From assembly GCF_029227855.1 (NCBI RefSeq), contig NZ_CP074357.1: 64,000 nucleotides of DNA, one strand, 5' to 3'. The notes under the pieces were generated by a model. It was not told where the DNA came from. It saw only the letters and a program-made list of their open reading frames with translations, and did not search any database. A program made the translations under genes and the position numbers. Positions within the stretch are counted from its first letter, which is position 1; the number at the start of each line of letters is the position of its first letter. This DNA comes from Escherichia coli (GTDB taxonomy: Bacteria; Pseudomonadota; Gammaproteobacteria; Enterobacterales; Enterobacteriaceae). This document shows, piece by piece, positions 57,728-58,712 of this stretch.

Positions 57728-57814
57728 GATTCAAGCAAGCCAACTTGTCGTCAAAATCGGTGTTGCAAAAACGGGAGTGACCATAGATTCCGTTTTCCAA
57801 GCGGACCCCGTGCT

Positions 57815-57985
57815 GTGTGGAAATCCGCCCACCTTGCCGGGCGCCGGTGCCGTGTGGAAATCCGCCCACCTTGCCGGGCGCCGGTGCCGTGTGGAAATCC
57901 ACCCACCTTGCCGGGCGCCGGTGCCGTGTGGGAATCCGCCCACCTTGCCGGGCGCCGGTGCTGTGTGGAAATTCGCCCATCTTCA
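57815..57985. repeat. iteron array: four 37-bp direct repeats plus one degenerate copy (IncN-type oriV)
   Basis: GTGTGGAAATCCGCCCACCTTGCCGGGCGCCGGTGCC tandemly at 57815, 57852, 57889, 57926 with point variants; downstream of rep as in IncN replicons. Confidence 0.8.
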
Positions 57986-58030
57986 TGACAAAAATTTGTC
58001 AAATGACAGGCTCATGTGTGCTGATTTATG

Positions 58031-58712
58031 TCAGACGGGATTTTGCTTATCAATTATTGAGAACAGAAATTTTCCTGAATCATCAATACTATACTTAGCA
58101 AGTAAAGGTGTTTTCTCATTTATCTGCTTGAGAGCAGGATCAAGGAAAGATCGTTTCAACTCTGCCAAGTTCTTCTGTTGGGATTCCGGCAAAAGGAAAC
58201 GGTCATTTAACCAAGCATGAGTAGTAACCCATAAGCCTGAAGATTTGAATTGAGCAAGACTTTCATAAAGGCGGATCGTCCGTGGATTTCGAAGACTGCC
58301 ACAATCGCGGAGCGAGTAGGTGGTGAACTGGTTCGTCAGGCCGTAAATGTACCGCAGGAGTTTATGGTTAAATTCGATTTCCCAGATACCACGAGCTGAT
58401 CGGCTGCCAGCCTCTGTTAGCCAGGGGCGCGCGACGCAGTCAAAACTCCCTTCTTTCGGGTAAAAGATTACCGCAGAACGGCTTAACTCAAACACGCCTT
58501 CTTTAACATCCTTGATAGCCTGGTTACGGCTTACCTGAAAAATTTGCTGATAGTCAGCCACCTTTACTTTGAAAGTAGAGTCACCGAGTACAGCCATCTC
58601 ATCATCATCTTCGCTTACTGAAGCTGTGAAATACGTCTGCATAAGACATAACCAGAGAACGCGCTTTGCTTTTAGCGAGAGGTAGTAAGCAGCTTCGGTA
58701 AGCTCGTTAGAC
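58031..58712 (-). pseudogene. repA: Rep_3-family replication initiator (IncN repA-like), 5' end and promoter replaced by IS26
   Basis: ..SNELTEAAYYLSLKAKRVLWLCLMQ.. is the conserved N-terminal Rep_3 motif; ORF only opens via a TTG inside the IS26 end. Confidence 0.7.

What the first reader, a model, noticed from the sequence alone, without database searches (positions are those of the whole stretch)
57728..58712. IncN-type replicon reduced to a remnant between two IS26 copies
Four and a half 37-bp iterons lie downstream of a Rep_3-family initiator gene whose first codons and promoter are replaced by the IS26 end. The only open start is a TTG inside the IS26 terminus, and IS26 ends are known to supply outward -35 elements. 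The replicon is probably dead and the plasmid must rely on another replicon outside this window. Alternatively the fusion could still express a slightly altered initiator.
Basis: partly seen in the sequence, partly recalled or inferred. Interest (0 to 1): 0.45.

Follow-up and report, generated by a model that had tools for sequence, protein, structure and literature searches.

The report
IS26-truncated IncN replicon remnant
This is a well-known, widely spread leftover of an IncN plasmid replication module, with its initiator gene beheaded by IS26 and its origin-like half missing, sitting in the resistance region of an IncHI2-type plasmid; it matters mainly because typing tools still call it "IncN".

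Summary
Two 820-bp IS26 copies in inverted orientation (56908-57727 and 58713-59532) enclose 985 bp. That segment holds five 37-bp-spaced RepA-binding iterons and, on the minus strand, an IncN1 repA. The protein is 100% identical to R46 RepA residues 14-239. The gene lacks its first 38 nt and everything upstream.

In R46 the missing upstream part carries tandem DnaA-box-like sites, the only >=80% A+T stretch and five 22-bp iterons. So the origin-like half of the replicon is gone. What remains resembles the downstream copy-control array of F or P1.

The same IS26/repA breakpoint accounts for about 218 of 924 PLSDB records and 121 of 301 complete-E. coli-genome records that match this part of repA. 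All 8 sampled carriers also have IncHI2 or IncF replicons. No other initiator gene lies in the window.

The module (ΔrepA-iterons) is already described in papers on IncHI2, F33 and IncR plasmids.

Refinements: 61 bp of an IS4321/IS5075 end and 21 bp of a 38-bp transposon IR also lie in the segment. The IS26 -35 lies downstream of the annotated TTG start, so it cannot drive the fusion ORF. The remnant keeps exactly the PCR replicon-typing (PBRT) IncN amplicon.

Verdict: ordinary, already known, probably replication-dead.

The parts
56908..57727 (+). IS26 copy 1 (820 bp, wild-type Tnp26); truncates a Tn3-family (Tn1721-type) tnpA on its left
   Evidence: 14-bp terminal repeats and full tnp26 ORF; annotated as IS26 in identical plasmids
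57728..57788 (+). Last 61 bp of an IS4321/IS5075-type (IS1111/IS110 family) element, cut by IS26 copy 1
   Evidence: The 63-mer is 100% identical in >5000 plasmids. In pHCM1 it is the end of an element that splits the Tn21 38-bp IR. Intact IS5075 or IS4321 occupies this position in pEC96-94kb, p14EC033f and p1585m1_A.
57789..57809 (-). Outer 21 bp of a 38-bp Tn21-family-like terminal inverted repeat (GGGGTCCGCTTGGAAAACGGA), the target of the IS4321/IS5075 insertion
   Evidence: The uninterrupted 38-bp repeat is seen in the gshB-linked version (L001/L009). Compared with the Tn21 IR in pHCM1.
57810..57983 (-). IncN 37-bp iteron array: 4.7 units with five RepA-binding cores at 57816, 57853, 57890, 57927 and 57964
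   Evidence: TRF, the repeat finder, core scan; matches the R46 array 32510-32749
57984..58030 (-). Spacer between the repA stop and the iterons, with an A+T-rich palindrome (57983-58006); same as R46
58031..58712 (-). ΔrepA: nt 39-720 of IncN1 repA (RepA residues 14-239 plus stop); WH1 and WH2 domains retained
   Evidence: BLASTP 226/226 to R46 RepA. Pfam Rep3_N profile positions 4-140 of 141, versus 1-140 in native RepA. blastn to R46 31781-32686.
58713..58759 (-). IS26-encoded 5' extension of the annotated fusion ORF (TTG start, 16 codons [16 protein letters not shown]), 5 nt after the tnp26 stop
   Evidence: annotated as WP_152921961.1 'replication initiation protein' in public records
58713..59532 (-). 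IS26 copy 2 (IS26-v1, Tnp26 G184N); its right end abuts ΔrepA and its left end abuts a 3' fragment of tet(A)
   Evidence: the same transposase accession (WP_001067858.1) sits next to ΔrepA in sampled plasmids
58153..58712 (-). Complete PBRT IncN amplicon; the forward primer site 58693-58712 begins at the first retained base
   Evidence: Exact primer matches; primers as listed in PMC10893597

Best explanation
The segment is a non-replicating leftover of an IncN1 (R46/pCU1-type) basic replicon.

History (inferred from shown structures): an IS26 (the G184N variant) inserted after nt 38 of repA in an IncN plasmid, and DNA upstream of that point was lost. That removed the repA start and promoter and the origin-like region (DnaA-box-like sites, AT-rich stretch, five 22-bp iterons). 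It left RepA codons 14-239 and the downstream 37-bp iteron array. An IS4321/IS5075 element later entered a 38-bp transposon IR beside the iterons, and a second IS26 cut that element down to 61 bp.

The remnant now travels passively in IS26-rich multiresistance regions, here in an IncHI2-type plasmid that replicates from its own replicons outside the window.

Shown: the anatomy, the identity to R46, the breakpoint, the wide distribution of the same junction, and the presence of another replicon in every sampled carrier. Inferred: loss of replication function, by analogy with F (ori2/incC) and P1 (oriR/incA), where the upstream iteron/AT-rich/DnaA unit is the origin and the downstream array is a dispensable control locus. 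Practical effect: replicon typing by PBRT or MOB-suite scores it as 'IncN'.
For: Anatomy and identity.

R46 reference replicon: DnaA-box-like sites at 31437 and 31445, the only >=80% A+T stretch at 31450-31550, 4.8 x 22-bp iterons at 31553-31658, repA at 31743-32462, and 6.5 x 37-bp iterons at 32510-32749. The window segment has no >=80% A+T stretch, and all its DnaA-box-like hits lie inside the iterons or repA.

Same breakpoint elsewhere: a 60-mer across the R46 breakpoint matches 924 PLSDB records. 706 match across it and about 218 match only from the junction base onward. In complete E. coli genomes the figures are 301 records, 180 intact and 121 truncated.

Other replicons: 8 of 8 sampled junction carriers also carry IncHI2A or IncFIA/FIB/FII replicons, and all are >=75 kb.

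Single old junction: the same junction occurs with 2, 5, 10 or 11 iteron cores and three different distal contexts, namely gshB, IS4321/5075 and native IncN backbone.

No other initiator gene in the window. No promoter-like site at the junction.

Published descriptions of the same module: PMC6288184, PMC6052338, PMC9412624, PMC10654068.
Against: No experiment here shows loss of function. The ORF is intact in frame, keeps essentially all of WH1 and WH2 (Pfam profile positions 4-140), and lies directly downstream of tnp26 on the same strand with no terminator-like site between them. A RepA-like fusion protein could therefore be made.

pCU1 is reported to have three origins (oriB, oriS, oriV; references cited in PMC7826253). 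I could not read where they map. A minor origin inside the retained DNA is not formally excluded.

The co-occurrence test rests on 8 sampled plasmids, not all ~218.
Confidence: 0.85

Rival explanations
1. The remnant is an active incompatibility or copy-control determinant. Its five RepA-binding iterons, perhaps with a fusion RepA made by tnp26 read-through, would titrate or handcuff the RepA of an incoming IncN plasmid. The carrier plasmid would thereby destabilise IncN competitors. This is compatible with the remnant being replication-dead.
For: Five intact cores are identical or nearly identical to R46's. The architecture parallels the incC/incA control arrays of F and P1 (general knowledge of iteron plasmids). 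The same junction persists with 2-11 iterons across many backbones. PMC6052338 cites the pCU1 work for a role of this iteron region in copy-number control.
Against: No test of incompatibility was possible. Five iterons on a large, presumably low-copy plasmid should titrate weakly. Persistence is explained equally well by hitch-hiking in IS26-bounded resistance regions. One carrier has only 2 cores, and one related plasmid lacks the IncN region altogether (PMC10654068), which suggests no strong selection.
Confidence: 0.15
2. The fusion gene and iterons form a working auxiliary replicon. A 242-aa RepA with 16 IS26-encoded N-terminal residues would be expressed and would initiate at or near the 37-bp iterons.
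For: The ORF is open and annotated as a replication initiation protein in RefSeq. WH1 and WH2 are retained. tnp26 could supply transcription. Papers call such plasmids 'multi-replicon'.
Against: The DnaA-box-like sites, AT-rich region and upstream iterons are absent. There is no promoter-like site at the junction. The IS26 -35 lies downstream of the start codon, and the TTG sits in a predicted hairpin stem with a poorly spaced Shine-Dalgarno-like AAGG. The residues aligned with RepE 16-20 are replaced. The module is never the only replicon in 8 of 8 sampled carriers.
Confidence: 0.04
3. The repeats and ORF belong to a non-IncN Rep_3 replicon, or are a chance resemblance.
For: None beyond the generic NCBIfam match to RepE below its cutoff.
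Against: 100% protein identity and 99.4% DNA identity to R46 over 906 bp, including the iterons.
Confidence: 0.01

Closest known systems
IncN1 basic replicon of R46 / pKM101 / pCU1 (repA plus 37-bp 'group I' iterons)
   Same: RepA residues 14-239 are identical. The same 37-bp iterons, the same repA-iteron spacer and the same orientation are present.
   Different: It lacks repA nt 1-38, the promoter region, the five upstream 22-bp iterons, the AT-rich stretch and the DnaA-box-like sites. It has 5 iteron cores versus 7 in R46. DNA distal to the iterons is a transposon IR plus an IS4321/5075 stub instead of IncN backbone.
Published 'IncN1 segment' ΔrepA-iterons-gshB-ΔIS1294 of IncHI2/ST3 plasmid pHN6DS2 and of F33:A-:B- plasmids (PMC6288184, PMC6052338)
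   Same: Same description: repA truncated by IS26 and five tandem 37-bp repeats. In the PLSDB gshB-linked records read here (L001, L009) the IS26/repA junction and the DNA from 57788 onward are 100% identical to the window.
   Different: In the window the 38-bp IR next to the iterons is interrupted by IS4321/IS5075. A second IS26 has then removed all but 61 bp of that IS, along with gshB and ΔIS1294.
F plasmid ori2-repE-incC and P1 oriR-repA-incA iteron replicons
   Same: Rep_3 initiator (1.4e-29 to RepE structures) flanked by an upstream iteron/AT-rich/DnaA unit and a downstream iteron array. The remnant corresponds to rep plus the downstream control array.
   Different: Different incompatibility group, longer iteron spacing (37 bp), and only distant protein similarity. 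The functional assignment for IncN is by analogy and by my recollection of the pCU1 literature, not tested here.
IS26-bounded pseudo-compound transposons / translocatable units
   Same: A DNA segment flanked by two complete IS26 copies within an IS26-rich resistance region.
   Different: The two IS26 are inverted, no 8-bp target duplication flanks either copy or the pair, and there is no resistance gene inside. It looks like a by-product of successive IS26 events, not a mobile unit.

Membership tests
IncN1 replicon (R46/pCU1 type) | RepA of the R46 type | tested here: met
   226/226 identity to R46 RepA residues 14-239
IncN1 replicon (R46/pCU1 type) | Complete repA with its own start codon and promoter | tested here: not met
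   The first 38 nt and all upstream DNA are replaced by IS26
IncN1 replicon (R46/pCU1 type) | Downstream array of 37-bp iterons | tested here: met
   4.7 units with 5 cores
IncN1 replicon (R46/pCU1 type) | Upstream 22-bp iterons, AT-rich region and DnaA-box-like sites | tested here: not met
   Present in R46 at 31437-31658 and absent from the window segment
IncN1 replicon (R46/pCU1 type) | Autonomous replication and IncN incompatibility phenotype | not testable with these tools
   Requires cloning and stability assays
Rep_3 (PF01051/PF21205) iteron-binding initiators | WH1 and WH2 winged-helix domains | tested here: met
   Rep3_N 5.2e-28 (profile positions 4-140 of 141) and Rep3_C 1.7e-9; RepE structures 1.4e-29
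IS26 | 820 bp, 14-bp terminal inverted repeats, 234-aa Tnp26 | tested here: met
   Both copies; copy 2 carries G184N (IS26-v1, named as such in PMC9412624)
IS26 pseudo-compound transposon / translocatable unit | Flanking IS26 copies with an 8-bp target-site duplication (direct orientation for a translocatable unit) | tested here: not met
   The copies are inverted. Flanks are GTCGAAGT/GATTCAAG and CGTTAGAC/GTCCTGCT, with no direct or reverse-complement match.
IS4321/IS5075 (IS1111 group) insertion in a Tn21-family 38-bp IR | Element end abutting the split 38-bp IR at the characteristic position | tested here: met
   The same end sequence and the same split point as in the Tn21 IR of pHCM1. Intact IS5075/IS4321 sits at this site in related plasmids.

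The most novel reading that the evidence does not exclude
The truncated module is not mere debris. It would be retained because its iterons, possibly helped by a tnp26-cotranscribed RepA fusion acting as a non-initiating binder, exert IncN-specific incompatibility. IncHI2, F33 and IncR resistance plasmids carrying it would then have a weapon against co-resident IncN plasmids.
Probability: 0.1. Interest if true: 0.45.

Novelty: already known. Interest (0 to 1): 0.12.

Why it matters
Biologically it is a routine fossil of IS26-driven plasmid mosaicism.

Its practical weight lies in replicon typing. The remnant retains the entire PBRT IncN amplicon, with the forward primer beginning at the first retained base. 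MOB-suite types it as 'IncN' in every carrier sampled.

This one truncated allele makes up about a quarter of PLSDB records and 40% of complete-E. coli-genome records that match this part of IncN repA. Many 'IncHI2-IncN' or 'IncF-IncN' multi-replicon calls therefore probably reflect an incomplete replicon. That affects host-range and incompatibility inferences in resistance-plasmid epidemiology.

Tried and rejected
1. Counting the junction with a 30+30-bp IS26/repA probe. The count was confounded by thousands of IS26 ends and gapped 86%-identity hits. I replaced it with the R46 breakpoint-spanning 60-mer, which separates intact from truncated copies cleanly.

2. Target-site duplications or an inversion signature around the two IS26. 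None was found.

3. A hybrid IS26 promoter. With a -35 TTGCAA at 58725-58720, the candidate -10 hexamers at 16-18 bp spacing (GCTTAC, CTTACC, TTACCG) lack the conserved A2 and T6. The scan found no promoter-like site at the junction.

4. An intrinsic terminator between tnp26 and the junction. None was found, only a weak hairpin that includes the TTG.

5. Rfam scan of 55000-61000. No hits.

6. Reading the primary pCU1 replicon papers (Krishnan & Iyer 1990; Papp & Iyer 1995; Zoueva 2003). They are not held, and a search for open-access descriptions of oriB/oriS/oriV positions found nothing usable.

7. A second replicon in the window. None was found by annotation of collinear plasmids or by Pfam on unassigned ORFs.

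8. I did not run large homologue searches or AlphaFold. They could not decide function.

Full report
**1. What is in the sequence**

Two complete IS26 copies lie at 56908-57727 (tnp26 on +) and 58713-59532 (tnp26 on -). Each is 820 bp with the 14-bp terminal repeats GGCACTGTTGCAAA. They differ at three nucleotides, and two of these give Tnp26 G184N in the second copy.

They are in inverted orientation. Neither copy, nor the pair, is flanked by an 8-bp duplication.

It contains, left to right on the + strand:

- 61 bp that are the terminal sequence of an IS4321/IS5075-type element.
- 21 bp that are the outer part of a 38-bp Tn21-family-like inverted repeat.
- A tandem array of 37-bp units at 57810-57983. 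TRF gives 4.7 copies, 94% matches and score 306. It has five 18-bp cores GGTGGGCGGATTTCCACA at exact 37-bp spacing.
- A 47-bp spacer with a small palindrome.
- On the minus strand, a Rep_3 initiator gene ending at 58031.

**2. Identity of the rep gene and the breakpoint**

The minus-strand ORF 58031-58759 (242 aa) matches Rep3_N (5.2e-28) and Rep3_C. From residue 17 it is 226/226 identical to RepA of the IncN reference plasmid R46, residues 14-239. At DNA level, window 57807-58712 aligns to R46 31781-32686 at 99.4%.

R46 repA starts at 31743, so nt 1-38 of the gene are missing. The IS26 right end is joined to the last base of codon 13.

The first 16 codons of the listed ORF (TTG at 58759; [16 protein letters not shown]) are IS26 sequence. 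Native RepA matches Pfam profile positions 1-140 and the fusion matches 4-140. Against F RepE structures, the lost residues 9-13 (IKVKQ) align with RepE 16-20, immediately before the conserved SN(D/E)LTEAAY motif. The protein is therefore nearly whole, but its native N-terminus, start codon and promoter are gone.

**3. What was lost**

In R46 the region upstream of repA carries three features:

- Two adjacent DnaA-box-like 9-mers, at 31437 and 31445.
- The only >=80% A+T stretch of the replicon, at 31450-31550.
- 4.8 copies of a 22-bp iteron at 31553-31658. These share the RepA-binding core with the 37-bp units, in the opposite orientation.

None of this is in the window. The retained segment has no >=80% A+T stretch, and its only DnaA-box-like hits lie inside the iterons or inside repA.

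This layout is that of F (ori2/incB-repE-incC) and P1 (oriR-repA-incA). There the upstream unit is the origin and the downstream array is a dispensable copy-control and incompatibility locus (established knowledge of iteron plasmids). By that analogy the window keeps the initiator body and the control array but not the origin.

The primary pCU1 mapping papers are not in the held library. My recollection is that the 37-bp 'group I' iterons are dispensable for replication and act in copy control. That recollection is a lead, not a test. pCU1 is said to have three origins (references cited in PMC7826253), and I could not place them.

**4. Expression**

IS26 ends do form hybrid promoters by donating a -35 (review PMC7986276). 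Here, however, the -35 TTGCAA (58725-58720, minus strand) lies 3' of the TTG start (58759) and barely 5' of the in-frame GTG (58718). The hexamers 16-18 bp downstream (GCTTAC, CTTACC, TTACCG) are poor -10s. The consensus scan reports no promoter-like site at the junction.

A transcript from such a promoter would start inside repA. It could translate only from an internal ATG (fusion residue 40), which would lose the first WH1 helix.

The 242-aa fusion could be made only by read-through from tnp26. That gene lies on the same strand, its stop is 5 nt upstream of the TTG, and no terminator-like site intervenes. Against efficient translation, the TTG sits in a predicted hairpin stem and the Shine-Dalgarno-like AAGG is only 3 nt away.

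**5. Distribution**

The 985-bp segment is 100% identical in about 20 large plasmids of E. coli, Salmonella, Klebsiella, Enterobacter and Raoultella.

A 60-mer spanning the R46 breakpoint matches 924 PLSDB records. 706 match across the breakpoint, and about 218 match only from the junction base onward. In 5,426 complete E. coli genomes the figures are 301 records, 180 intact and 121 truncated. 302 of the 305 matching places, intact and truncated together, are on plasmids.

Intact copies listed are mostly on 36-70 kb plasmids, the usual IncN size. Truncated ones are on plasmids of 75-330 kb.

All eight junction carriers whose typing I read have IncHI2A/rep_cluster_1088 or IncFIA/FIB/FII replicons as well, and all are nonetheless typed 'IncN'.

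The same junction occurs with 2, 5, 10 or 11 iteron cores and in three distal contexts:

- Native IncN backbone (pHNTS62).
- An intact 38-bp IR followed by gshB.
- The IR split by IS4321/IS5075.

In every sampled record where the neighbouring IS26 gene is listed, it is the G184N variant. This points to one old truncation event whose product has since been reshuffled.

**6. Context in the window**

The window is collinear with the multiresistance region and adjoining backbone of IncHI2 plasmids such as NZ_MZ152088, NZ_CP071712 and pXJW9B277-HI2-N.

Genes annotated in those collinear records (not read directly from the window) include mph(A), qnrS1, blaCTX-M-55, blaTEM-1, blaLAP-2, aac(3)-IId, aadA22, lnu(F), sul3, tet(A) and floR. 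The window holds at least six complete IS26 copies.

The remnant is the only gene annotated as a replication initiator in the parts of the collinear records I read. Pfam scans of 15 of the remaining unassigned window ORFs of at least 180 aa found transposases, resistance genes and domains of unknown function, but no initiator.

**7. Comparison with what is known**

This module is already described.

[quoted passage not shown] It mentions a variant with an IS4321 insertion.
- PMC6052338 and PMC10654068 describe the same remnants in F33:A-:B- plasmids.
- PMC9412624 describes an IncN repA remnant with iterons in IncR plasmids.

The window's version differs only in that a second IS26 has removed all but 61 bp of the IS4321/5075 copy. 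It works like, and derives from, the IncN1 replicon. It fails two defining features of a complete one: its own start and promoter, and the upstream origin-like unit.

**8. A practical point**

The standard PBRT IncN primers (listed in PMC10893597) match at 58693-58712 and 58153-58172. The forward primer begins at the very first retained base next to IS26. This is presumably a coincidence. It means the remnant gives a full-length PBRT product and an 'IncN' call.

**9. Verdict**

The finding is ordinary and already known.

The best-supported mechanism is a passive, replication-incompetent fossil (confidence about 0.85). It may have residual iteron-mediated incompatibility toward IncN plasmids; this is untested and is the only mildly novel reading.

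Noticed in passing
window 58713-59532 vs 56908-57727: The IS26 that truncates repA encodes Tnp26 G184N (IS26-v1, 3 nt different from the other copy). The same variant accession (WP_001067858.1) neighbours ΔrepA in the other plasmids sampled.
   Followed up: partly
window 58693-58712 and 58153-58172: The PBRT IncN primers match exactly. The forward primer's 5' base is the first base retained next to IS26, so the whole amplicon survives and the remnant types as IncN.
   Followed up: yes
window 57728-57809: A 61-bp stub of IS4321/IS5075 sits next to 21 bp of a 38-bp Tn21-family-like IR. That IR is intact and linked to gshB in other carriers. This is a transposon end directly beside the IncN iterons, and its parent transposon was not identified.
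   Followed up: partly
window 59533-59790 and 53104-54378: A 3' fragment of tet(A) abuts the outer end of IS26 copy 2, while a complete tet(A)-tetR(A) with a truncated Tn1721-type tnpA lies left of IS26 copy 1. This suggests IS26-mediated duplication or rearrangement of Tn1721 sequence.
   Followed up: no
window 6719-7538, 82-95, 10370-10383: There are at least six complete IS26 copies in the window. In addition, one copy starting at 6719 has no exact right-end terminal repeat at the expected position, and lone IS26 ends lie at 82-95 and 10370-10383. This is a highly IS26-scrambled resistance region.
   Followed up: no
window 57681-58220 (+) and 58031-58759 (-): Both IS26 right ends read outward into the segment with the same 16-codon open frame ([16 protein letters not shown]). 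The +-strand ORF across the iterons is a by-product of this and has no coding support.
   Followed up: partly
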